Of a DNA stretch of 64,000 nt, positions 5,775 through 61,180 are shown one piece after another. The translations under genes were made by a program, and so were the position numbers. Each line of letters opens with the position of its first letter. The stretch's first letter is position 1. The stretch is taken from sequence record NC_017969.1; one strand, 5' to 3'. The notes under the pieces were generated by a model, which saw only the letters and a list, made by a program, of their open reading frames with translations, had not been told where the DNA came from and searched no databases. Source of the DNA: Escherichia phage vB_EcoS_AKFV33.

Positions 5775-6536
5775 TTACACCTTCCCCATGTCTTTAAAGA
5801 TGTCATAGAATGCTTTAGACTCAACAGAACGAACGTTATCAATCAATTCGATCATTGAGAATGGGGCATTTTCGTATTTCTCATAGACTTCCATAAGGAG
5901 TGCTAGACCTGAGTCACCTTTAATGTCTTTCTGAGCTATATCTCCGCAGATAATTAAACGGCAGTCTTGTCCTACACGAGTTAGAAGACAAATCATTGCC
6001 TCAACGGAAATATTCTGAGCTTCATCGACAATTACATAGGAGTTGTTGAAAGTTCTGCCACGAGCATGTTCGACAGCCAAAAATTTAATTTTCTGACGTT
6101 CGACATATCCCTTATAGGCATGATCGCCGATGGCCCATTTCATACCATCAGCTATTGGCTCCAACCAAGGCTCTAGCTTTTCTGCTAGATCACCAGGAAG
6201 CATACCAAGAGACTTACCTAGAGGTTCATTAGGACGTACGAGGATAACTTGCTCAATATCTGAGTGAATGTCTACGAGTTCCTGAGCTGCAAGAACGGAC
6301 GGAATAAAGGTTTTACCAGTACCTGGCTCACCGATACCCACAGTCACTGTGTTGTTCTTGATCATATTGATATATGATTTTTGCTCGCGGTTTTTACCTA
6401 CTAGGGATTTAGCAACTGGGTTAGCGTAATCATTAGAAAAATCAGCCTGAATTACGTTATTCTCATACTTGTTGCCACGCTTTCTTGAACCATTGCGGTT
6501 CTCTCTTTTTTGACGTGCTTTTCCCATAAATAACAC
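5775..6536 (-). CDS. phoH: PhoH-like ATPase
   Basis: 253 aa; Walker A GEPGTGKTF and Walker B-like VIVDEAQN; GGAG Shine-Dalgarno before the start. Confidence 0.85.
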   Translation of the reverse strand: MLFMGKARQKRENRNGSRKRGNKYENNVIQADFSNDYANPVAKSLVGKNREQKSYINMIKNNTVTVGIGEPGTGKTFIPSVLAAQELVDIHSDIEQVILVRPNEPLGKSLGMLPGDLAEKLEPWLEPIADGMKWAIGDHAYKGYVERQKIKFLAVEHARGRTFNNSYVIVDEAQNISVEAMICLLTRVGQDCRLIICGDIAQKDIKGDSGLALLMEVYEKYENAPFSMIELIDNVRSVESKAFYDIFKDMGKV

Positions 6537-6881: not shown

Positions 6882-7550
6882 ATGCCAAAGAAATTGAGTA
6901 CGGAAGAAGTCAATAATAGACTTTTAGATAGAGGAATTGTCTTAGTTGGGGAGTATATAAATGCTAATACTAAGGCTAGTTTTAGATGTTCAGTGGGGCA
7001 TGTATGGGAAACAAAACCATCAGTGTTACTTAACATGGGATTTGGATGTCCATATTGCAGTGGGAAAGCTAAACTAACTCCTGAAGTAATAAACCAGGAA
7101 TTAAGTAATAAAGGAATACAAATAGTAGGCAAATATGTAAATAATAGAACTCCGACCCTTTTTAGGTGTGAAAATGGCCATGAGTGGAATACTACTATTA
7201 ATGCAGTGAAAAATTTAGACAGTAATTGCCCGATATGTAAAAAAGAAGGCAGGTCTAAAACAAAACTATATGTTATGTATAGTGAATCTTTAGGTACTAA
7301 GATTGGTATCTCTAATAAACCGGGAACTAGATTAGGAAAAATTAGCAGAAATGCTAATATACCAGATCTTAAATTATTTAAAGTATTTGATATCTTAGAT
7401 TATACTAAGTGCCGTAAAATTGAGAAAGCAGCACATGAGCATTTTAAAGAATGGAACTGCTATTATAAGGATTTTGATGGTGCTACAGAGTTTTTTGATA
7501 TTGAACCAGATACAGCAGTAAAATTTATTGAGGAAAATATTAATGACTGA
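6882..7550 (+). CDS. T5orf172-domain protein (GIY-YIG-like endonuclease candidate) with two N-terminal zinc-ribbon-like modules
   Basis: 222 aa; two tandem modules of the form GEYxN..TK..F.C..GH.W...CP.C, then a C-terminal TK(I/V)GIS...TEFF region resembling the T5orf172 domain; AT-rich rare-codon usage; paralog of 58536..59210. Confidence 0.7.
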   Translation: MPKKLSTEEVNNRLLDRGIVLVGEYINANTKASFRCSVGHVWETKPSVLLNMGFGCPYCSGKAKLTPEVINQELSNKGIQIVGKYVNNRTPTLFRCENGHEWNTTINAVKNLDSNCPICKKEGRSKTKLYVMYSESLGTKIGISNKPGTRLGKISRNANIPDLKLFKVFDILDYTKCRKIEKAAHEHFKEWNCYYKDFDGATEFFDIEPDTAVKFIEENIND

Positions 7551-9390
7551 AGCTGAATTATTCGATAATATCTATGGTATTACAGATGGCTTTGCAGACT
7601 CTACCCTAAAGCATAATAATGCTAATAAACCCTCTGAGCGTTTTCCTACTCAGCGGGATATGATTGCAGGTGAACTAAGTAAATTTTTAACCTTGCAAGA
7701 AATGCCCGTACAGATCAGGACAGCACACTCAATCGGAGATATTCATTTCCATGACTTGGATTATTCCCTTTTGGGCATGACTAACTGTTGTCTAGTAGCT
7801 CTGGAAGATATGCTAAAAAATGGTATGAAGGTTGGTAATGCTGAAATTAGCACTCCAAACTCTATCACTACTGCGGCGGCTATTACTGCTCAGATTATCA
7901 CTCAGGTTAGCTCCCATCAGTATGGTGGTACTTCTGTAGATCGCCTTGATGAAGTATTAGCCCCTTATGTTCGTAAATCCTATGACAAAAATCATGCGTT
8001 TGCAAAACGTTGGACTAAGGATGAAGCCAAAGCATCAGTAATGGCTACGGAGATGACTGAAAAAGAAGTCTATGACGCTTGTCAGGGTTTAGAATATGAA
8101 ATCAATACCATGTTCAACTCTAATGGTCAGAGTCCATTTATTACCTTTGGTTTTGGTCTAGGAACTTCCTGGGAAGCACGTCTAGTACAGAAAGCAGTAC
8201 TGAAAGTACGCATGGATGGTTTAGGTATCAATAAACGTACAGCTATCTTCCCGAAACTGGTATTTGTACTTCGCGATGGCGTAAATATGAAACCAGGAGA
8301 TGTTAATTATGACATCAAGAAGTTAGCTATGAAATGTACTGCTGAACGTATGTATCCAGATTATATCAGCTATGACAAGGTTGTAGAAGTTACTGGAGAC
8401 TATAAAGTTTCTATGGGCTGCCGTTCATTCCTAGCTGCTGCAGAAGATGGTGAAACTGCTGGCCGTAATAACTTAGGTGTTGTTTCTGTAAACTTGCCTA
8501 GAATTGCTATCGAAGCTGAAGGAAATATTGATCTATTCTTTGATTTGCTTGAGCTACGTGTGGATACAGCGTTAAAAGCATTGGAGTGGAGAGTTGATCG
8601 CTTAAAATACATCCAAGCTAAAGCTGCACCCATCCTCTATATGTCAGGAGCCTTTGGGTTACGCTTGGAGCCTGATGAATATGTATTCGATCATTTCTAT
8701 AACCGTGCTTCTGTATCTCTAGGGTATATTGGTTGCCATGAAATGCTACAGTTCATGTTCGGCAAAGATGTAGACACAATGTCAGAGACCTGCATCAAGT
8801 TTGTTCAGCGTGTATTGCAGTACATGCGAGATAGAGTCGATCAGAAGAAGGAAGAGACTAAGTTAGGTTATAGCCTGTATGCTACACCGTCAGAGTCCCT
8901 ATGTGATAGGTTTTGCCGTTTAGACCGTGAATATTTCCCAGAGCATGAAGATATTCTGTCTAAAGGATACTACACTAACTCGCACCACCTTGATGTAGAG
9001 CGTAAAGTTGCTCCTAACGTGAAATTTGATTATGAATCTAACTTTACGCCTATTGCTTCTGGTGGGTGCATTTCCTATGTAGAACTACCGGATATGAAAC
9101 GATTCCCAGATGCACTGGAATGGGTTATTAATTATGCTGCTAGTAAGGTTCATTACTTCGGTATTAATACCCCAGTGGATTCTTGTGGTAAATGTGGATT
9201 CTTAGGTGAAACAATAGCATCCGAAGATGGATTCAAGTGCCCTATCTGTGGTAATCATGACCCCGAAACTCTTGAAGTAACTCGTCGAGTTTGTGGGTAT
9301 CTTGGAAATCCAGGTGCTCGTCCGTTTAACCCAGGAAAACAACATGAGGTTATGGGCAGGGTGAAACATCAGGATATTCGAGCTAAGTAA
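7543..9390 (+). CDS. nrdD: anaerobic ribonucleoside-triphosphate reductase
   Basis: C-terminal glycyl-radical motif RVCGYLG preceded by a Cys zinc ribbon (CGKCGF...CPICG); start placed at ATG 7543 with a GAGGA Shine-Dalgarno (the track begins at TTG 7528). Confidence 0.9.
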   Translation: MTEAELFDNIYGITDGFADSTLKHNNANKPSERFPTQRDMIAGELSKFLTLQEMPVQIRTAHSIGDIHFHDLDYSLLGMTNCCLVALEDMLKNGMKVGNAEISTPNSITTAAAITAQIITQVSSHQYGGTSVDRLDEVLAPYVRKSYDKNHAFAKRWTKDEAKASVMATEMTEKEVYDACQGLEYEINTMFNSNGQSPFITFGFGLGTSWEARLVQKAVLKVRMDGLGINKRTAIFPKLVFVLRDGVNMKPGDVNYDIKKLAMKCTAERMYPDYISYDKVVEVTGDYKVSMGCRSFLAAAEDGETAGRNNLGVVSVNLPRIAIEAEGNIDLFFDLLELRVDTALKALEWRVDRLKYIQAKAAPILYMSGAFGLRLEPDEYVFDHFYNRASVSLGYIGCHEMLQFMFGKDVDTMSETCIKFVQRVLQYMRDRVDQKKEETKLGYSLYATPSESLCDRFCRLDREYFPEHEDILSKGYYTNSHHLDVERKVAPNVKFDYESNFTPIASGGCISYVELPDMKRFPDALEWVINYAASKVHYFGINTPVDSCGKCGFLGETIASEDGFKCPICGNHDPETLEVTRRVCGYLGNPGARPFNPGKQHEVMGRVKHQDIRAK

Positions 9391-31046: not shown

Positions 31047-32865
31047 GACACTAAAATTTAGTAACGTTATGTCTTACGGTAAGGACATCGTAATCCATTT
31101 CGATAAGAATCCAGTTACTCAACTAATTGGGGGCAATGGGCTAGGGAAATCCACCATTGCTACTGTTATTGAAGAACTCTTTTATAATAAGAACTCACGC
31201 GGTATTAAGAAAGATGCTCTGTTCTCTTGGTCTTCCCCGAAAAAAGAGTATGATATGCACGCTTACTTCTCGAAAGATGAAGATGAGTACGAACTGCATA
31301 AAGTAGTTAAATCAACTGCTAAAGTAACTCTTATTAAGAATGGAGAAGATATTAGTGGACACACGGCAACTCAAACATACAAGATGATTGAAGAGATTAT
31401 GGGTGGTGACTTCCAAACATTCACCAAACTGATTTATCAATCAGTGGGTTCCAATCTAGACTTTCTAAAAGCAACAGATGCAACACGTAAGGCTTTTCTT
31501 GTTAACTTGTTCAATCAAGAACAGTATAAAGAAATGTCAGAAACTATTAAGGCTGACCGTAAAGAAATAGCAAATACCTTAAATAATTTGCAGGGCCAAA
31601 TGGCTGTAATTACGAAAATCCTTAATGGAAAGAATAATCTGGGAACTTTGCAGGAACCTGTAGAAGTACCAGAGTTTGATGAAGAGCCATTAGCACAAGA
31701 ACTTACTGAATCGAAAATTAAGGCGGCATTAGCCAAGTCTCAAGAGGCTAATATTACTAAATTGCGTAATTTGGACAAAGCTGTACAAGTTGCCGAACAA
31801 TCTTTCGAGCCTTTCAAAAATTTACCCGCGCCCACTGACCAAAATGAAGAGATCTCGAGTGTTACGCGTGACCTAACGATTGTGACCTCACGTGCGAGCG
31901 AAGTTAAGAAACGTTATCAGAAGTTCAAGCAAGAGGCTTCAAATACTGAATGTCCTACCTGTGGTACTCATCTGGATACAACTGCTGCGCAAAAAGCAAT
32001 GGATATGGCTAGAACAGAATATGATCCTCTGTTCAAAGAGAAGCAATCTCTTGAAGCTAAGCTAGAACAGTTGAAGAAAGAACAACTTGAGTACGTTGCA
32101 TATACTAGAGCAAAGGATGCTTTGGATAAGGCAGTAGCAGCTAGAGACGAGTTCAAAAATTCAATGAGTGATGCTTCTTTTGAAGAACTCAATGTGCAAA
32201 TCCTACAGGTGCAAATCCGACAATTAGAACAGGAAATAGCTGATGGACGTTCTAAGGTTGCAATTGCTAAAGAACATAATGCAAATGTTGAGTTAGCCAA
32301 TGCAAAATATAAGGCGAAACTAGAACAGATTGAGAAAGCTGAGGCAGAAATGTCTGAGATTACTTCCAAACTGGATGGAGTATCAGAAGCTGTTGCTGAT
32401 CTCGATATTCTGATTGCTGCATTAAAGAATCTAGTAGGATATAAGCTAGAGCATAGTGTGAAAGTATTTGAAGAACTAATTAATAAATACCTTTCCATTA
32501 TGACTGGTGGTAAGTTCGCACTTGGATTTGAGCTTGATGAAACAAAATTACAAGTAGTAATCTTCAATGATGGAAATCGTACCAGTATGGAGAACTGCTC
32601 TACTGGTCAACAGAGTAGAATTAACCTAGCAACCCTGTTAGCTATTCGGATGCTGTTAACATCTATTAGTAAAGTTAATATTAATCTTCTATTCCTTGAT
32701 GAAGTAATTAGCTTTATTGATACAAAAGGACTTGATACTCTTGTTGAATTATTAAATGAGGAAGAAAGTCTAAATTCTATCATTGTTTCTCATGGGCATA
32801 CGCATCCACTAGCTCATAAGATTACTGTCAAAAAAGATGCAGAAGGATTTTCCTACTTAGAATAA
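31027..32865 (+). CDS. SbcC/Rad50-like ATPase
   Basis: N-terminal Walker A GGNGLGKST, long central coiled coil, C-terminal Walker B LLFLDEV; start placed at ATG 31027 (track begins at 30946, overlapping sbcD). Confidence 0.85.
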   Translation: MSKITIKTLKFSNVMSYGKDIVIHFDKNPVTQLIGGNGLGKSTIATVIEELFYNKNSRGIKKDALFSWSSPKKEYDMHAYFSKDEDEYELHKVVKSTAKVTLIKNGEDISGHTATQTYKMIEEIMGGDFQTFTKLIYQSVGSNLDFLKATDATRKAFLVNLFNQEQYKEMSETIKADRKEIANTLNNLQGQMAVITKILNGKNNLGTLQEPVEVPEFDEEPLAQELTESKIKAALAKSQEANITKLRNLDKAVQVAEQSFEPFKNLPAPTDQNEEISSVTRDLTIVTSRASEVKKRYQKFKQEASNTECPTCGTHLDTTAAQKAMDMARTEYDPLFKEKQSLEAKLEQLKKEQLEYVAYTRAKDALDKAVAARDEFKNSMSDASFEELNVQILQVQIRQLEQEIADGRSKVAIAKEHNANVELANAKYKAKLEQIEKAEAEMSEITSKLDGVSEAVADLDILIAALKNLVGYKLEHSVKVFEELINKYLSIMTGGKFALGFELDETKLQVVIFNDGNRTSMENCSTGQQSRINLATLLAIRMLLTSISKVNINLLFLDEVISFIDTKGLDTLVELLNEEESLNSIIVSHGHTHPLAHKITVKKDAEGFSYLE

Positions 32866-56412: not shown

Positions 56413-56895
56413 TTAGCCTCCAACCCCAGGGTTAACTGTCACAGTACACGCAGTAGAATCCTTACTTACTCGCTTACTATCTGTTACAGTTACTTTATAA
56501 GAGCCGGCATCCTCAGCTGCTGCTGTAGGCTTAGTATAGGTAGCTCCTGAAGCATCCGGAATAGGAGAACCATCTTTAGTCCATGCATAAGTATATGGAC
56601 CAGTACCACCAGTTGCAGTAACAGAAAGTGTTAATGCTGCTCCCTCTTCAACGGACATGCTAGCAATTAAATCTTTAGAAAGAGTTAATGGTGGAGCAGG
56701 AGGAACTGCTTTACCATATGCCTCTACAAATTTCTTCCATACTTTGCGGTTAGTATGCGCAGATGAAAGTCCTAATTCTCTACGCAGAAAAGCATAGCTA
56801 GGAACATATTTATGCGCAGCAACCGTAGCAAAGAAGATATGAGATTCTGGTAGTTTTTCACCAAAAATGGTCTTTAGACCACTATAATCAATCAT
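56413..56895 (-). CDS. capsid decoration protein with Ig-like domain (pb10-like)
   Basis: 160 aa; C-terminal Ig-like segment TLSVTATGGTGPYTYAWTKDGSPI. Confidence 0.6.
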   Translation of the reverse strand: MIDYSGLKTIFGEKLPESHIFFATVAAHKYVPSYAFLRRELGLSSAHTNRKVWKKFVEAYGKAVPPAPPLTLSKDLIASMSVEEGAALTLSVTATGGTGPYTYAWTKDGSPIPDASGATYTKPTAAAEDAGSYKVTVTDSKRVSKDSTACTVTVNPGVGG

Positions 56896-58109
56896 TCTTT
56901 ATCTCCCTCGGTGGAACCTTGAGGTCTACCACCTTCTTGACCGGATACGCCTGTTGCAGAACCAGCGACGTTAGCAGGAATACGAATCTTACTCATCTGC
57001 TCATCATCTAAAGGCTCAAGGTTCAGCTCTAAACGAGCTTCGTTACCAGTTATAATACCATTATTAACCAATGAGGTTAAATGTTTAGCCTCAGATTCTT
57101 TATCTGGTGTTAATGCAGCTACTTCCTTAGTATTAGGAGTAATCTTATAACCAAAAAAGAAAGTAAGAGAACTAGTCAGTTTGTTCAGCATAGGAATGAT
57201 AGTCATATAATAGAACAATTCGATGTTTGGTCGAATATTCGCATTATTACCACCATCAAGCAGTACTTGCGGAACTCCAAAGGCTAGACAAATAGATTTA
57301 TTAAATCCTTCGATGTCTTCCTTAAAGTCTAGATCTTTAAAAGAGGATATTTGGGAGTACGGTTTAGCTTTCATACCACCATCTAGAATCAGGACAGAAG
57401 ACTGACCAGTACTAGGATTATAATCGAGTTGTAATTCTTCTTGTTTACGCTCACGCAATTTCTTGTTCAGGATTTCATCCGTCTCAAGAATAAGACCAAT
57501 CACGGTTCCGTTATCTAGGAATTTCTCTTTAAAGTTAAGCATCTTAGAACGCTTTTCAAGAGAATCAATAACAGTAGCAACACGAGATTGTCCAGAAATT
57601 TGAGAATTTGTGCCACACACGTAACTGTTATCCTTTATAAAGATAATCTCATCTACGCGATAGTCTATCTGATTATTAAATATAAACTTTTTGATAAACT
57701 TATTGGCATCTGCCTCGACCTGCATAAGAGCAGCCGGGACATGGTAAAGCGATGTGCCATCCCAATAGATGTATGCACAACCTTCAAAAAGTAGGTCAGT
57801 GACTACAAGTCTACGGAATGTGCTTATATCCATGAATGGATTAGGTCGTACATTTAAGAGAGTGTCTAGAGTCTTTGTTTTGACGCCATTAGCGTACGTA
57901 ACAATATTATATTTATCTCCGACAGTATAAGAACACTCCGCCGCACTATCTATAACCATATTAGCAGTTCTATTGAGAATCTCAATTTTACTGTAGGCTT
58001 GTCCAGTGGTAAAAGGCTTACGGTTAGTGCGATGACTAACTGGTTCCATGTCTCTTATAATACGTTGACCCGGATTTAACTTTTCAGTAATCCAGCTTTT
58101 TAAACCCAT
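56892..58109 (-). CDS. portal protein (pb7-like)
   Basis: 405 aa; upstream of the decoration, protease and capsid genes. Confidence 0.65.
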   Translation of the reverse strand: MGLKSWITEKLNPGQRIIRDMEPVSHRTNRKPFTTGQAYSKIEILNRTANMVIDSAAECSYTVGDKYNIVTYANGVKTKTLDTLLNVRPNPFMDISTFRRLVVTDLLFEGCAYIYWDGTSLYHVPAALMQVEADANKFIKKFIFNNQIDYRVDEIIFIKDNSYVCGTNSQISGQSRVATVIDSLEKRSKMLNFKEKFLDNGTVIGLILETDEILNKKLRERKQEELQLDYNPSTGQSSVLILDGGMKAKPYSQISSFKDLDFKEDIEGFNKSICLAFGVPQVLLDGGNNANIRPNIELFYYMTIIPMLNKLTSSLTFFFGYKITPNTKEVAALTPDKESEAKHLTSLVNNGIITGNEARLELNLEPLDDEQMSKIRIPANVAGSATGVSGQEGGRPQGSTEGDKE

Positions 58110-58561
58110 TATAAGAACCTTGCGAATCCTGATTTTGTTTCAGTCTTGACTTGTGTCTTTTCTTGAGGATTCTGTAATTTGTCTTTCTGCTTTTGAACCC
58201 ACGCTTTTTGCTTATTAGCAGAAAATAAAGGAGGTTCTTTTGTGTAAACCTTATGTAATAATTGGTGATGGTGCTGGCACAATGTTACCACATCCCTAAC
58301 TAACTCATGCTCATATTTCTTGTAGAATGCTTCCCTATTTGAAAGGACGATATTCTCATCAGTGAAATCCAGCTGGAGTTCTTTAGCAAATTTTTTTATT
58401 AGCTGAGATATAGTATGATAATGGTGAAGTTCTAGGTCTTCACTACTACCACATATAGCACAGCAACCATCCTTACTATACCTAGATTTTATACCATCCC
58501 TCATTATGGAAATGGCATCACGTTTGTACTTAGTATTAGTGGCCATAATCCTCCAATCCAA
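58109..58561 (-). CDS. HNH endonuclease
   Basis: 150 aa; Cys/His-rich HNH-like blocks (CAICGSSEDLELHHYH ... CQHHHQLLH); overlaps the portal start. Confidence 0.6.
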   Translation of the reverse strand: MDWRIMATNTKYKRDAISIMRDGIKSRYSKDGCCAICGSSEDLELHHYHTISQLIKKFAKELQLDFTDENIVLSNREAFYKKYEHELVRDVVTLCQHHHQLLHKVYTKEPPLFSANKQKAWVQKQKDKLQNPQEKTQVKTETKSGFARFL

Positions 58562-59210
58562 AGCTACTTAGAAAGATTACTATATCCTCAGGAGCAACAT
58601 TAAAAAATTCCGTGCTTCCTGTAAAATTAGAAAACCCACAGTTTTTATTATAATATTCTCTGTGAACTTCCTTTTCTAAATCTAAAGCAGTCTCTCTATC
58701 TGGCAGATGATACATGGTGAACAAGTATAGGTCAGAAAATCCAGATTCTCTTTTAACTTCATTCAGCCGTTTCTCAGGGTATAAGCTTATGCCTACTTTA
58801 GTACCACTAGAGGAGGACATGATATAGAGGAATCCGCCATTCTCCCACTTAAGAGAACAATAAGGACATCTCTTACCTTGAGTCAATCCATCTAAGGTAA
58901 TTAAACAGTCATGCCCCTTATTGCAGCGTAGATGTAGTTTTGTTTTAGCATTAGTATAGCTGCTTAACAGAGTATACCCTATATTAGATATTCTGTTATT
59001 AACTTCATCTAACGATATTGTATTATTGGAGCAGTGTGGACAACCTCTCCCCATATGGAGTATAGAATGTGGTGTTGCTTCCCAAACGTGTGCTCTCTGG
59101 CATTTAAATACTGTTTTTGTACGTTGGTTTACATATTCACCGACAATTTGGATTCCACGATCAGCTAATCTAATATTTATATCTTTTATTGTTAGCTTTT
59201 GTCGACTCAT
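58536..59210 (-). CDS. T5orf172-domain protein (second paralog)
   Basis: 224 aa; same two-zinc-ribbon plus T5orf172-like architecture as 6882..7550 (shared GEYVN.RTK..F.C...H.WE, CP.CS, TK.GIS, STEFF blocks). Confidence 0.7.
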   Translation of the reverse strand: MSRQKLTIKDINIRLADRGIQIVGEYVNQRTKTVFKCQRAHVWEATPHSILHMGRGCPHCSNNTISLDEVNNRISNIGYTLLSSYTNAKTKLHLRCNKGHDCLITLDGLTQGKRCPYCSLKWENGGFLYIMSSSSGTKVGISLYPEKRLNEVKRESGFSDLYLFTMYHLPDRETALDLEKEVHREYYNKNCGFSNFTGSTEFFNVAPEDIVIFLSSFGLEDYGH

Positions 59211-59381
59211 AGAATCTCCTACACCCCATGTAGAGCATTAATTTTTCTTGTTTACGTTCTATTATGGGAGAAGTTCTCCCGATCAATGAATATAGTATAC
59301 ATAATCGTATCGAATTTGTAAAGGGGATTTTAAAATGCAGGAATGGGATACCAACTGAGTAGTATCCCATCCTATACTTAT

Positions 59382-60698
59382 TTATTTACCACGGGAAATA
59401 GAGTAAATTCCATAGCGCAGAGCATCACAGAGGTGAGAGTTAGCATCATGACGTGGTTTTTCACGTGATAATTTTTCTTCACCTTCTTGGAAATCCCACT
59501 TGTAATTCTGCAATGCGTGAATTAATGAGGAACATGAAGCATCCACAATAATCTTGCCCTGCTGGAATAGCGCTTGCAAGCATGCTAGACCATCTAGGAC
59601 AGATTTTTTAGCTGGAGCCGATGCAATTTCATGCTCATACGCTAAGTCCTGACGGAACTGAGCTGCGGCAGAGTCAACAAAAACACGATCAACTTTATAA
59701 CGATCTATACAGTGTTGAATATACGCAGCATGCTGAGCTGTGGTTTTCTCCGCCTGCTGGTACTCTTCTAATACATAGTAAGTATCCGTATCGTAATGAT
59801 ATTTAATAGTAAGAACTGCTGTAGGATCACGATAACCAACGTCAATGCCAAGTAAGGTTTCGAATGCTTCGTCATCTTTAAAGAAGTGACGCATACCTTT
59901 GAGGTCTTTAACATGATCGATAGCGTTAAAGGTATCAAAGATCTGACCTTCGAATACAGAGAAATCAGCCTCATATTCCTGACGGAAGTAGTTTTTACTA
60001 ACTGTGCGACGTGCTTCTTCTATGTCATTCAGGTCAGCACGTGGGTTATCACGATACGTACCATGAATAGATACCCAGTTAGGCAATGTATCATCAAATC
60101 CATAGGCGTAAAACTCTTTAAACCAGTTACCACCACGAGGAGTAGAGATAAATAGAGCCTTAGAGTTTGGTTTATCTAGGGTAGGGCGCAACTGAACTCT
60201 AAAGGCATCGCCACCAACATCGGAAATTGCCGCCTCATCGAAGATGATAAAGTCATATGAACGTCCAACTGCGGAGTCAGCCTGCGCCGCAGAAGCTAGT
60301 TTAAACAGAGAACCATTAGCTAACTCAATCTCTTTATCTTTAGCGTTCTCACGTTCAGTTTGTAGGCCATACTTCTTAATAAGACCACGAATCTGAGACC
60401 ATCCGATATTGGCCAGTGAGTAGTTAGGGGCAACTACTAGCACCTTCACATTAGGTTCCAGCAATTTTAGGAACCCAAGAGTATACGCTATAAAAGACTT
60501 GCCCACACGGCGTGATACACACGCCGTTACAAAACGATGTCTAGGGTCTTCTAGAGCATTGATGATCGCTATTTGAGGACCATTAGGTGTAATACCTTCT
60601 TGTGCTAGTATTCCGGAAACAGGTAGACGAAAGAAACGTTTGTCTATTCCGAAATCAATAACATCTACTGTATTAACGTAGGGTCTTGATACTTCCAT
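59382..60698 (-). CDS. terminase large subunit
   Basis: 438 aa; Walker A-like SRRVGKS near the N-terminus; nuclease-like C-terminal half. Confidence 0.8.
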   Translation of the reverse strand: MEVSRPYVNTVDVIDFGIDKRFFRLPVSGILAQEGITPNGPQIAIINALEDPRHRFVTACVSRRVGKSFIAYTLGFLKLLEPNVKVLVVAPNYSLANIGWSQIRGLIKKYGLQTERENAKDKEIELANGSLFKLASAAQADSAVGRSYDFIIFDEAAISDVGGDAFRVQLRPTLDKPNSKALFISTPRGGNWFKEFYAYGFDDTLPNWVSIHGTYRDNPRADLNDIEEARRTVSKNYFRQEYEADFSVFEGQIFDTFNAIDHVKDLKGMRHFFKDDEAFETLLGIDVGYRDPTAVLTIKYHYDTDTYYVLEEYQQAEKTTAQHAAYIQHCIDRYKVDRVFVDSAAAQFRQDLAYEHEIASAPAKKSVLDGLACLQALFQQGKIIVDASCSSLIHALQNYKWDFQEGEEKLSREKPRHDANSHLCDALRYGIYSISRGK

Positions 60699-61180
60699 TA
60701 CTTCTTACCTCCAGTAGCCAGGGAAGTAATTAAGTCCATATAGTTTTGATCCCCAGCTCCAGCAATAATGTTATTCTGGATATTGGTCTGGTTAGCAGGA
60801 GTACGGGCTGCTGCCTTCACTTTCTCCAATTCTACCATCATTTTCATTTCTTCCATCTTCATCTTGTGTGCCTTCCAGAGAATGTCCATAATATCCTGGT
60901 CAGAACCCATGCCGGTTTCTTCTAGTTCCTCTAGTTTACGCTTAATAACTTCATCTAGAACACCAAACAAACGATCTCTGTTACGGAATCCACTTTCCAT
61001 AAAAATATCGTTTAAGTAGTTCTTAACTTCGCTACGATTCATAATATCTCGGAAAGCAATTTCGGACATTCCAAGACTACGTGCGGCAGAAGGCACATCG
61101 CTACCACACTGTAAATAAGCTTCAATTACATCCATCCCTTCAGGGGACATAAGATCTGGTACTAATACATCATTTGCCAT
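60698..61180 (-). CDS. terminase small subunit candidate
   Basis: 160 aa; HTH-like N-terminus; directly upstream of and overlapping the large subunit. Confidence 0.55.

What the first reader, a model, noticed from the sequence alone, without database searches (positions are those of the whole stretch)
58109..59210. HNH plus T5orf172 gene pair wedged between terminase and portal
Two overlapping putative nuclease genes lie directly between the terminase large subunit and the portal gene. HNH proteins next to terminases assist DNA packaging in several phages, and T5-type genomes are known for site-specific single-strand nicks; either gene is a candidate nicking or packaging-accessory enzyme rather than a passive selfish element.
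Basis: inference. Interest (0 to 1): 0.4.

Follow-up and report, generated by a model that had tools for sequence, protein, structure and literature searches.

The report
T5 nickase SciA plus homing endonuclease
The two genes between terminase and portal are the already characterised T5 nicking enzyme SciA, found in every T5-like phage, and a selfish homing-endonuclease gene inserted just upstream of it in a minority of them, so the locus is ordinary and already explained.

Summary
Two overlapping minus-strand ORFs lie between terL (59382-60698) and portal (56892-58109).

The downstream gene (58109-58546, 145 aa from its ATG) is SciA, the T5 site-specific nicking endonuclease. It is 144/145 identical to T5's protein. 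My model superposes at 0.7 Å on PDB 9QGV/9QGX, [quoted passage not shown], released 2026-03-25. It occurs as one copy in 898 phage records.

The upstream gene (58536-59210, 224 aa) has two CapR-type zinc-finger repeats plus a T5orf172 (GIY-YIG-like) nuclease domain. It behaves as a free-standing homing endonuclease gene:
- It is complete in only 72 of about 440 close relatives, and 340 have an intact empty site.
- Decayed remnants exist.
- It sits exactly between the late promoter and the sciA ribosome-binding site.
- It travels with the first ~280 nt of sciA as one cassette across genus backgrounds.
- A 38%-identical paralogue lies next to nrdD in this window.

BF23, which is known to be nicked, lacks the T5orf172 gene.

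No packaging role is supported. Already known; low interest.

The parts
58109..58546 (-). sciA: HNH-type site-specific nicking endonuclease, 145 aa. The ATG is at 58546. The stop overlaps the portal ATG by 1 nt (TAATG).
58268..58546 (-). sciA codons 1-93, the part that travels with the insert (co-conversion tract). It contains the zinc knuckle, the catalytic HH and the helical insertion.
   Evidence: Filled and empty phages are 60-83% identical here and 96-100% identical just beyond it, with the same boundary in Tequintavirus and Epseptimavirus backgrounds. pS is 0.76 here against 0.00 in codons 94-145. There are three allele classes, F, E and H.
58536..59210 (-). Free-standing homing-endonuclease-like gene, 224 aa, with its own RBS (GGAG) and ATG at 59210. 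Its last 11 nt overlap the sciA start, and it supplies the RBS now used by sciA (GGAGGATTATG).
   Evidence: Pfam hits are CapR, DUF4379, MUG113 and T5orf172, all above cut-off. It matches phrog_681 'endonuclease' at 5e-60. It is present at >=80% identity in only 80 records. dN/dS is 0.11.
58845..59210 (-). N-terminal DNA-binding region of the T5orf172 protein: two tandem CapR/DUF4379-type zinc-ribbon repeats (C37/H41...C57-x2-C60 and C96/H100...C115-x2-C118).
   Evidence: Pfam CapR matches in 2 stretches and DUF4379 matches residues 29-62. The Cys/His residues are invariant in four homologues. This architecture is described for T5orf172 homing endonuclease genes in PMC10448857.
58578..58835 (-). 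T5orf172 (GIY-YIG superfamily) nuclease domain, residues 126-211.
   Evidence: Pfam T5orf172 matches residues 126-211 and MUG113 matches 138-210. Invariant residues are LY129xM, G136-T-K-x-G140, R148, R154, E179, H183 and T-E201-F-F. dN/dS for this domain is 0.05.
58547..59285 (-). Inserted DNA relative to empty-site phages: 739 nt replacing 18 nt. The left junction lies between 59286 and 59285.
   Evidence: Alignment of the window, T5, Gostya9, slur09 and TrudiGerster, and segment identities.
59286..59381 (-). Conserved 96-nt terL-distal intergenic region shared by filled and empty phages. It holds a terminator-like hairpin (59341-59372) and a promoter-like TTTACA-17-TATACT (59294-59322). The insertion point is 8 nt after the -10 box.
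   Evidence: It is 100% identical to slur09 and 96% to TrudiGerster. The consensus scan found both elements. The T5st0 record annotates a putative promoter here.
59382..60698 (-). terL, terminase large subunit (upstream neighbour).
   Evidence: Pfam Terminase_6N/6C and phrog_2.
56892..58109 (-). Portal gene (downstream neighbour, start overlapping the sciA stop).
   Evidence: Pfam Phage_portal at 5.6e-50.
31825..31832 (-). Substrate site of SciA within the window. It is the orthologue of the T5 major single-chain interruption (the '64.8%' nick), TGG|GCGCGGG, with the nick between 31832 and 31831 on the minus strand.
   Evidence: AY543070 annotates the nick at 78573|78574 on the minus strand. 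This maps to the window by BLAST. The pattern matched. The core is conserved in phages of all three sciA allele classes.

Best explanation
The locus holds two unrelated nucleases with different biology.

(1) sciA (58109-58546) is the conserved T5-family HNH nickase. It is transcribed late from the promoter just after terL, and its stop codon overlaps the portal start codon. It introduces the site-specific single-strand interruptions of virion DNA at R|GCGC-type sites on one strand. One such site is in this window at 31831|31832.

(2) The T5orf172 gene (58536-59210) is a free-standing homing endonuclease gene inserted into the 5' untranslated leader of the sciA-portal operon. Its two zinc-finger repeats are expected to recognise a long target in insert-less relatives, at or near the terL-sciA junction or the 5' part of sciA. 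Its GIY-YIG-like domain is expected to cut there during mixed infection. Recombinational repair would then copy the gene and about 280 nt of the adjacent sciA allele into the recipient.

Shown: the identity of SciA; the distribution, junctions, remnants and cassette boundaries of the insert; purifying selection on the insert ORF.

Inferred: actual cleavage activity, the target site and homing.
For: SciA:
- It matches PDB 9QGV/9QGX 'SciA(H42Q/H42A) endonuclease from Escherichia phage T5 in complex with 10 bp DNA (GCGC sequence)'.
- It is 144/145 identical to T5.
- It is in 898 records, 897 of them full length, one copy each.
- Its family is small and phage-restricted.
- The annotated T5 major nick maps to a conserved site in the window.
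- sciA and sciB were mapped to the late region, and viable nick-less mutants are known (PMC3517423).

T5orf172 gene:
- Pfam domains are above cut-off.
- 72 records carry the full insert, 340 have an intact empty junction and 12 are HildyBeyeler-type.
- The junctions are precise.
- Gostya9 keeps only the two ends of the gene. HildyBeyeler keeps about 47 nt of the left end.
- TrudiRoth (Epseptimavirus, filled) is 93% identical to the window in sciA nt 1-330 but 75% identical to its congener TrudiGerster. In sciA nt 331-438 it is 96% identical to TrudiGerster.
- The boundary is sharp at about 58270 in both backgrounds.
- Synonymous sites are saturated in sciA codons 1-93 against zero changes in codons 94-145.
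- dN/dS of the ORF is 0.11.
- Klebsiella phage Sugarland has a 53%-identical gene at the same site.
- A 38%-identical paralogue lies beside nrdD in this window.
- Related genes occur in many unrelated phages.
- PMC10448857 describes T5orf172 homing endonuclease genes as abundant in T5-like phages, next to terminase and ribonucleotide-reductase genes, with CapR zinc-finger repeats and at recombination boundaries.
- BASEL records annotate it 'putative homing endonuclease'.
- PMC10194208 notes its absence in phage Key.
Against: No experiment on this T5orf172 protein was found, so cleavage, target site and homing are untested. The paper behind 9QGV/9QGX is not in the searchable library. What SciA does biochemically is therefore taken from the deposit titles, T5 record annotations and older literature cited second-hand. 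The strict linkage between the insert and one sciA allele could also arise from ordinary recombination between lineages without nuclease action. The database counts include GenBank/RefSeq duplicates.
Confidence: 0.88

Rival explanations
1. Packaging-accessory HNH (HK97 gp74-like). SciA, placed between terL and portal, stimulates or completes terminase cleavage and is needed for DNA packaging. Nicking would be a by-product.
For: The position between terL and portal is conserved in all 898 records. The sciA stop overlaps the portal start. HNH proteins adjacent to terminase genes assist cos cleavage in HK97 (PMC13595911, citing Kala 2014). The T5st0 record labels the small terminase gene 'probable sciB, involved in formation of single-chain interruptions', which hints at a link between nicking and the terminase.
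Confidence: 0.07
2. The T5orf172 protein is a domesticated regulator or competition factor rather than an active homing enzyme. It might repress the late promoter next to it, as I-TevI and PLE CapR repress their targets. It might cut co-infecting rival phages without self-propagation. It might modulate nick frequency (the sciB phenotype).
For: The CapR homology domain is the DNA-binding domain of a domesticated T5orf172-family repressor (PMC8096241 title and abstract; PMC10448857). The gene sits 8 nt downstream of the -10 box of the operon promoter. Purifying selection is strong, with dN/dS 0.11. A homologue at the same site in the distant Sugarlandvirus genus suggests long-term retention.
Against: About 80% of close relatives lack it, and 340 have clean empty sites. 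Remnants show repeated loss. The putative catalytic residues of the nuclease domain are all kept, and that domain is the most constrained part, with dN/dS 0.05. BF23 nicks its DNA without it (PMC10644984).
Confidence: 0.1
3. The T5orf172 ORF is an inert relic: a dead insertion carried along by linkage and no longer encoding an active protein.
For: Decayed versions exist in Gostya9/DT57C-type and HildyBeyeler-type phages. T5 records differ from the window by a 1-nt indel just upstream of the ORF. Degeneration after fixation is the expected life cycle of homing endonuclease genes.
Against: The ORF is intact in 72 records. It is 90% identical in protein across genera, with dN/dS 0.11 and 0.05 in the nuclease domain. 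Its RBS and ATG are conserved. The upstream indel lies outside the ORF.
Confidence: 0.05

Closest known systems
SciA nicking endonuclease of Escherichia phage T5 (gene T5.153 / T5p149; PDB 9QGV, 9QGX)
   Different: One conservative substitution, L124 here against I in T5. The deposits additionally carry engineered H42Q or H42A changes.
T5 gene T5.154 / T5p150 and the T5orf172-family homing endonuclease genes of T5-like, ICP1-like and other phages (PMC10448857)
   Same: It is the orthologue of the T5 gene, with 98.1% nt identity over the insert. The architecture is the same, zinc-finger (CapR/DUF4379) repeats followed by a C-terminal T5orf172 nuclease domain. It shows the same habits: variable presence, decay, and location beside terminase and ribonucleotide-reductase genes at recombination boundaries.
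   Different: The T5 records annotate 277 aa. The window's extra G limits the ORF to 224 aa, which fits the conserved RBS and ATG and the promoter lying inside the 277-aa annotation. No member at this site has been tested biochemically as far as I could find.
Free-standing GIY-YIG homing endonucleases of phage T4 (Seg proteins, I-TevI)
   Same: These are also intergenic insertions next to conserved genes. They also show co-conversion of flanking markers, a modular DNA-binding part plus a nuclease domain, and sporadic distribution. This rests on established knowledge and on PMC10448857.
   Different: The nuclease subfamily differs (T5orf172 rather than canonical GIY-YIG). The DNA-binding modules differ (tandem zinc ribbons). 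Cleavage and homing are not shown here.
HK97 gp74 and other terminase-associated HNH proteins (Kala et al. 2014, cited in PMC13595911)
   Same: It is a small HNH protein encoded within the packaging gene cluster. It has a helical insertion inside the ββα-metal motif, as SciA has about 45 residues between the HH hairpin and the final helix.
F-TflI / F-TflII / F-TflIV, the HNH nicking homing endonucleases of the T5 tRNA region (Akulenko 2004, cited in PMC10644984)
   Same: They are HNH enzymes of T5 that cut one strand. They are probably the source of the 'nicking site-specific endonuclease' wording in many annotations.
   Different: Those are mobile and variably present. SciA is a fixed, single-copy core gene of the whole family.

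Membership tests
SciA / T5-type virion-DNA nickase (Pfam PF26848 label in the protein database) | Sequence and fold identity with the crystallised T5 SciA | tested here: met
SciA / T5-type virion-DNA nickase (Pfam PF26848 label in the protein database) | HNH catalytic and zinc-binding residues intact, including H42, the residue mutated in the deposits | tested here: met
   C29, C32, E39, H41, H42, C90, H93, H94 and H98 are invariant in 45 homologues and present here.
SciA / T5-type virion-DNA nickase (Pfam PF26848 label in the protein database) | Conserved single-copy gene between terL and portal in T5-like phages | tested here: met
   898 records hold 900 places, 897 of them full length. The synteny holds in T5, Gostya9, slur09, TrudiGerster, TrudiRoth, Sugarland, HildyBeyeler and BF23.
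SciA / T5-type virion-DNA nickase (Pfam PF26848 label in the protein database) | Presence of cognate R|GCGC nick sites in the genome | tested here: met
   The annotated T5 major nick maps to window 31831|31832 with the core conserved. The count of 8-mer consensus matches is not above chance, 3 against 1.85 expected, so the consensus alone does not define sites.
SciA / T5-type virion-DNA nickase (Pfam PF26848 label in the protein database) | Nicking activity of this protein on this genome | not testable with these tools
   This needs alkaline gels or nick sequencing of virion DNA.
Free-standing homing endonuclease gene (T5orf172 / GIY-YIG class) | Nuclease domain of a family associated with homing endonuclease genes, plus a DNA-binding module | tested here: met
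   Pfam T5orf172 scores 34.4 bits (cut-off 20), MUG113 35.9, CapR 38.3 and DUF4379 36.0. Motif residues are conserved.
Free-standing homing endonuclease gene (T5orf172 / GIY-YIG class) | Sporadic presence among close relatives, with a precise empty site | tested here: met
   72 records are full, 340 empty and 12 HildyBeyeler-type, out of about 440. The junctions are defined to the base.
Free-standing homing endonuclease gene (T5orf172 / GIY-YIG class) | Degenerate copies, as expected from the invasion-decay-loss cycle | tested here: met
   Gostya9 keeps about 55 codons at the 5' end and about 20 at the 3' end. HildyBeyeler-type phages keep about 47 nt of the left end.
Free-standing homing endonuclease gene (T5orf172 / GIY-YIG class) | Co-conversion of flanking sequence and transfer across lineages | tested here: met
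   The insert plus sciA nt 1-~280 form one unit in Tequintavirus and Epseptimavirus backgrounds. The boundaries are sharp and the synonymous-site contrast is 0.76 against 0.00.
Free-standing homing endonuclease gene (T5orf172 / GIY-YIG class) | Multiple paralogues at other conserved loci of the same and related genomes | tested here: met
   Window 6882-7550 lies beside nrdD at 38% identity. Paralogues below 60% identity occur at other positions in T5-like genomes.
Free-standing homing endonuclease gene (T5orf172 / GIY-YIG class) | Site-specific cleavage of the insert-less allele and super-Mendelian inheritance in mixed infection | not testable with these tools
   This needs purified protein and phage crosses. 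No published test of this gene was found.
Terminase-associated HNH packaging factor (HK97 gp74 type) | HNH motif protein encoded next to terminase genes | tested here: met
   The HNH signature is present. The gene lies between terL and portal.
Terminase-associated HNH packaging factor (HK97 gp74 type) | Sequence or structural relatedness to gp74-type HNH proteins | tested here: inconclusive
Terminase-associated HNH packaging factor (HK97 gp74 type) | cos-type genome ends whose cleavage needs the HNH protein, which is essential for packaging | tested here: not met
   Tested only against the literature. T5 and BF23 have ~10-kb direct terminal repeats (PMC10644984), and viable nick-less mutants exist (PMC3517423, citing Rogers 1979).

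The most novel reading that the evidence does not exclude
The T5orf172 enzyme may target the common (E-type) terL-sciA junction or the 5' part of sciA. The three deeply diverged N-terminal sciA allele classes (F, E, H) would then be cleavage-immunity alleles. These classes are 69-77% identical over residues 1-93 and 94-100% identical afterwards. On this reading a selfish nuclease repeatedly replaces the catalytic and DNA-recognition two-thirds of the phage's own nickase. That could shift minor-nick patterns or nick frequency between T5-like phages, even though the major site tested here is conserved.
Probability: 0.2. Interest if true: 0.4.

Novelty: already known. Interest (0 to 1): 0.12.

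Why it matters
It matters little as a discovery. SciA is a named and crystallised enzyme. T5orf172 homing endonuclease genes next to terminase genes in T5-like phages have been surveyed in print.

The practical value lies in annotation:
- The 145-aa gene should be called sciA (nicking endonuclease). It should not be called 'hypothetical' or 'homing endonuclease'.
- The upstream gene should be a 224-aa homing-endonuclease-like gene, not the 277-aa ORF in the T5 records.

The one observation I did not find stated elsewhere is that the insert drags the first ~93 codons of sciA with it. This creates discrete nickase allele classes joined at the C-x-x-H-H motif. It gives a simple natural experiment for asking which part of SciA sets nick-site choice.

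Tried and rejected
- I searched four times for the primary paper on SciA or 9QGV. It is not in the library, and 'scia' mostly matched 'sciadv'. PMC254472 (Rhoades 1984) is not held.
- Pfam-A and NCBIfam scans of the nickase gave nothing. The PF26848 label seen on its homologues is absent from the local Pfam copy.
- The T5 nick consensus RGCGCRGG is not enriched in the window: 3 matches against 1.85 expected, and 28 of 100 shuffles reached 3 or more. Only the site that T5's own record annotates is meaningful.
- I considered an RBS-occluding hairpin upstream of the T5orf172 ATG, as in T4 homing endonuclease genes. It appears in the MFE fold but not in the centroid, and the region's z-score is only -2.4. 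I do not claim it.
- Salmonella phage SP3 and Escherichia phage BUCT632 looked like further site variants. In both, portal and sciA are fragmented together, so these are probably assembly frameshifts.
- I looked for a donor lineage for the F-type sciA 5' allele among 74 homologue clusters. None is closer than 77% identity, so the origin is unresolved.
- A weak tblastn hit of SciA at 32554-32832 (E 0.19) lies inside the D13 gene and is spurious.
- One fold search with a placeholder model id failed.
Full report
**What is there.** The window is the late region of a T5-like phage (Tequintavirus). All genes discussed here are on the minus strand. The order is terS (60698-61180), terL (59382-60698), a 171-nt gap, a 224-aa ORF (58536-59210), a 145/150-aa ORF (58109-58546/58561), portal (56892-58109), decoration protein, prohead protease and major capsid protein. 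The region is 96% identical to T5 and about 97% identical to several E. coli and Salmonella T5-like phages. The finding's coordinates are therefore exact.

**The downstream gene is SciA.** The local Pfam-A and NCBIfam copies do not recognise it. A sequence search of the PDB finds two entries called 'Nicking endonuclease' at E 1e-95.
- The entry titles are 'SciA(H42Q)' and 'SciA(H42A) endonuclease from Escherichia phage T5 in complex with 10 bp DNA (GCGC sequence)', released 2026-03-25.
- The window protein differs from T5's at one residue, L124 against I.
- The family alignment shows an HNH signature with a Cys/His zinc knuckle: C29-x2-C32, H41-H42, C90-x2-H93-H94 and H98. About 45 residues of helical insertion lie within it.

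The real start is the ATG at 58546, not the TTG at 58561. All relatives and the crystallised protein have 145 residues, and a GGAGG lies 5 nt upstream.

**SciA is a core gene.** tblastn finds it in 898 phage records, 897 at full length, with 900 places in all. The hosts include Escherichia, Salmonella, Klebsiella, Vibrio, Proteus, Providencia and Aeromonas. In every locus I opened it sits immediately upstream of portal with overlapping stop and start codons. In 5.8 billion proteins the family has only 74 clusters at 90% identity. The named members are all T5-like phages, apart from one 351-bp 'Enterococcus faecalis PhoH' contig that looks like a contaminant or chimera.

The literature I could reach gives four facts:
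- T5 and BF23 virion DNA carries site-specific nicks in one strand (PMC10644984).
- The consensus for the major nicks is 5'-R/GCGCRGG (PMC3517423).
- Two genes, sciA and sciB, were mapped to the late region (PMC3517423).
- Viable nick-less mutants exist (PMC3517423, citing Rogers 1979 and Rhoades 1984).

T5's own record annotates a major nick at 78573|78574 on the minus strand. This maps to window 31831|31832 inside TGG|GCGCGGG.

**The upstream gene is a homing-endonuclease-type insert.** Its product has two tandem zinc-ribbon repeats (Pfam CapR and DUF4379) and a C-terminal T5orf172/MUG113 domain, all above the Pfam cut-offs. The motif residues are intact. Its distribution is very different from that of SciA.

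| State of the terL-sciA site, among about 440 megablast-detectable relatives | Records |
|---|---|
| Complete insert | 72 |
| Uninterrupted empty junction | 340 |
| HildyBeyeler-type, keeping about 47 nt of the insert's left end | 12 |
| Gostya9/DT57C-type remnants, keeping only the two ends of the gene | a handful |

The alignment fixes the junctions. A 96-nt segment after terL is shared by all phages. It contains a terminator-like hairpin and a TTTACA-17-TATACT promoter (annotated as a promoter in T5st0). In empty phages it is followed directly by the sciA RBS. In filled phages 739 nt replace 18 nt. The insert brings its own RBS and ATG and, at its 3' end, a new RBS for sciA. The ORF's stop codon lies 7 nt inside sciA.

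The T5 records' 277-aa version of this gene runs through the terminator and promoter. It depends on a 1-nt difference upstream of the ORF. The 224-aa ORF is the credible one.

**The insert moves as a cassette with part of sciA.** The table gives nucleotide identity by segment.

| Pair compared | terL | 96-nt spacer | insert | sciA nt 1-330 | sciA nt 331-438 | portal |
|---|---|---|---|---|---|---|
| window (filled) vs slur09 (empty), both Tequintavirus | 93.4% | 100% | n/a | 75.5% | 99.1% | 97.3% |
| TrudiRoth (filled) vs TrudiGerster (empty), both Epseptimavirus | 89.6% | 97.9% | n/a | 75.2% | 96.3% | 93.7% |
| TrudiRoth vs window, both filled | 85.3% | 97.9% | 89.4% | 93.0% | 88.9% | 94.6% |

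A 60-nt sliding window places the right-hand boundary at about 58270 in both backgrounds. That is codon 93, at the conserved C-x-x-H-H motif.

Synonymous differences are saturated in codons 1-93 (pS 0.76). They are zero in codons 94-145 and 0.11-0.29 in the flanking genes. The alleles are therefore old and have been joined by recombination. They are not recent local divergence.

At the protein level there are three N-terminal classes: F (T5 and this window), E (the majority, closest to the family consensus) and H (HildyBeyeler). They are 69-77% identical over residues 1-93. No donor lineage for the F class was found.

The tblastn identity distribution for SciA is bimodal. 81 records are at 95% or more, none fall between 90 and 95%, and 336 lie between 80 and 90%. 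The high class is about the same size as the number of records carrying the insert or a remnant of it.

**The insert ORF is maintained, not decaying, where it is complete.** dN/dS between the window and TrudiRoth is 0.11 overall. It is 0.05 in the nuclease domain and 0.21 in the zinc-finger repeats.

**Family context.**
- A 38%-identical paralogue with the same architecture lies at 6882-7550 in this window. It sits between a phoH-like gene and nrdD and overlaps the nrdD start.
- A 53%-identical gene occupies the same terL-sciA site in Klebsiella phage Sugarland.
- More distant relatives occur in many unrelated phages, one of them annotated as a homing endonuclease inside an RNA polymerase gene of phage AR9.
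- PMC10448857 reports T5orf172 homing endonuclease genes as abundant in T5-like phages. It finds them most often next to terminase (35% of neighbourhoods) and ribonucleotide reductase (33%) genes, usually with CapR-type zinc-finger repeats, and at boundaries of genetic exchange.
- BASEL records already call this gene 'putative homing endonuclease'. PMC10194208 notes its absence in phage Key.

**Does either gene serve packaging, and does the T5orf172 gene serve nicking?** BF23 is experimentally nicked (PMC10644984) and has the empty site. The T5orf172 gene is therefore not needed for nicks. The major nick-site core is identical in phages of all three sciA classes, so the classes probably share at least that specificity.

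A gp74-like packaging role for SciA is not supported. T5-like phages are not cos phages, nick-less mutants are viable according to the cited genetics, and no structural relationship to other HNH proteins was detectable. One open lead remains: the T5st0 record labels the small terminase gene 'probable sciB'. That hints nicking may be coupled to the packaging machinery, but I could not test it.

**Verdict.** One half of the interpretation, that the HNH gene is a nicking enzyme, is correct and already established. The other half, that the T5orf172 gene is not a selfish element, is contradicted by the comparative data. The pair is an ordinary and previously described feature of T5. The only modest addition here is the cassette structure linking the insert to discrete sciA N-terminal alleles.

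Noticed in passing
window 6882-7550 (+): A second T5orf172-type gene (222 aa) is 38% identical to the one in the finding and has the same two zinc-ribbon repeats plus nuclease domain. It sits between a phoH-like gene (5775-6536, -) and nrdD (7528-9390, +) and overlaps the nrdD start by 23 nt. It is probably another free-standing homing endonuclease gene.
   Followed up: partly
window 31825-31832 (-): This is the orthologue of the annotated T5 major single-chain interruption (AY543070 78573|78574), TGG|GCGCGGG inside the D13 (SbcC-like) gene. The core is identical in T5, slur09, HildyBeyeler and TrudiGerster, although the flanks drop to 85% identity.
   Followed up: yes
window 60281-60288 (-), inside terL: GGCGCAGG is a perfect match to the published nick consensus on the nicked strand. 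T5's record annotates no nick at the corresponding position. It could be a minor nick site or simply a chance match.
   Followed up: partly
window 59211-59381; L001 3145-3978; L011 1774-2607: T5 records annotate the T5orf172 gene as 277 aa, running through the post-terL hairpin and the promoter. The window has one extra G (ACATGGGG against ACATGGG), which closes that frame. The 224-aa ORF with its conserved RBS and ATG is the likely real gene, so the T5 annotation is probably over-extended.
   Followed up: yes
L008 (Salmonella phage SP3) and L009 (Escherichia phage BUCT632): Both portal and sciA are split into several short ORFs in these records. Because portal is essential, these are probably sequencing or assembly frameshifts rather than biology.
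   Followed up: partly
L007 3039-3298 (HildyBeyeler) and 11 similar records: This is a third state of the site. The terL-sciA gap is 260 nt, keeps about 47 nt of the insert's left end, and is linked to a third sciA N-terminal allele (class H). What fills the rest of the gap was not worked out.
   Followed up: partly
L006 3001-3681 (Klebsiella phage Sugarland): A T5orf172 gene only 53% identical occupies the same terL-sciA site in a different genus (Sugarlandvirus). Other Klebsiella T5-like phages seem to lack it. This is either an old association or repeated invasion of the same site.
   Followed up: partly
protein P0063: A 351-bp contig is labelled 'PhoH family protein, partial [Enterococcus faecalis]'. 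It encodes a 117-aa product that is 100% identical to the N-terminal part of SciA. It is probably T5-like phage contamination or a chimeric call in that assembly.
   Followed up: no
L013 3282-3791 and 6581-7111 (HildyBeyeler), L014 6636-7055 (TrudiGerster): Further 'putative homing endonuclease' genes flank the recombination-nuclease (D12/D13) genes in some phages but are absent from slur09 in the same interval. This shows how pervasive such insertions are in this phage family.
   Followed up: no
L001 5306-5788 (T5st0 T5p152) = window 60698-61180: The gene now recognised as the small terminase subunit (phrog_3802, 6.5e-91) is labelled 'probable sciB protein, involved in formation of single-chain interruptions' in the T5st0 record. 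If correct, this would link nick frequency to the terminase.
   Followed up: no
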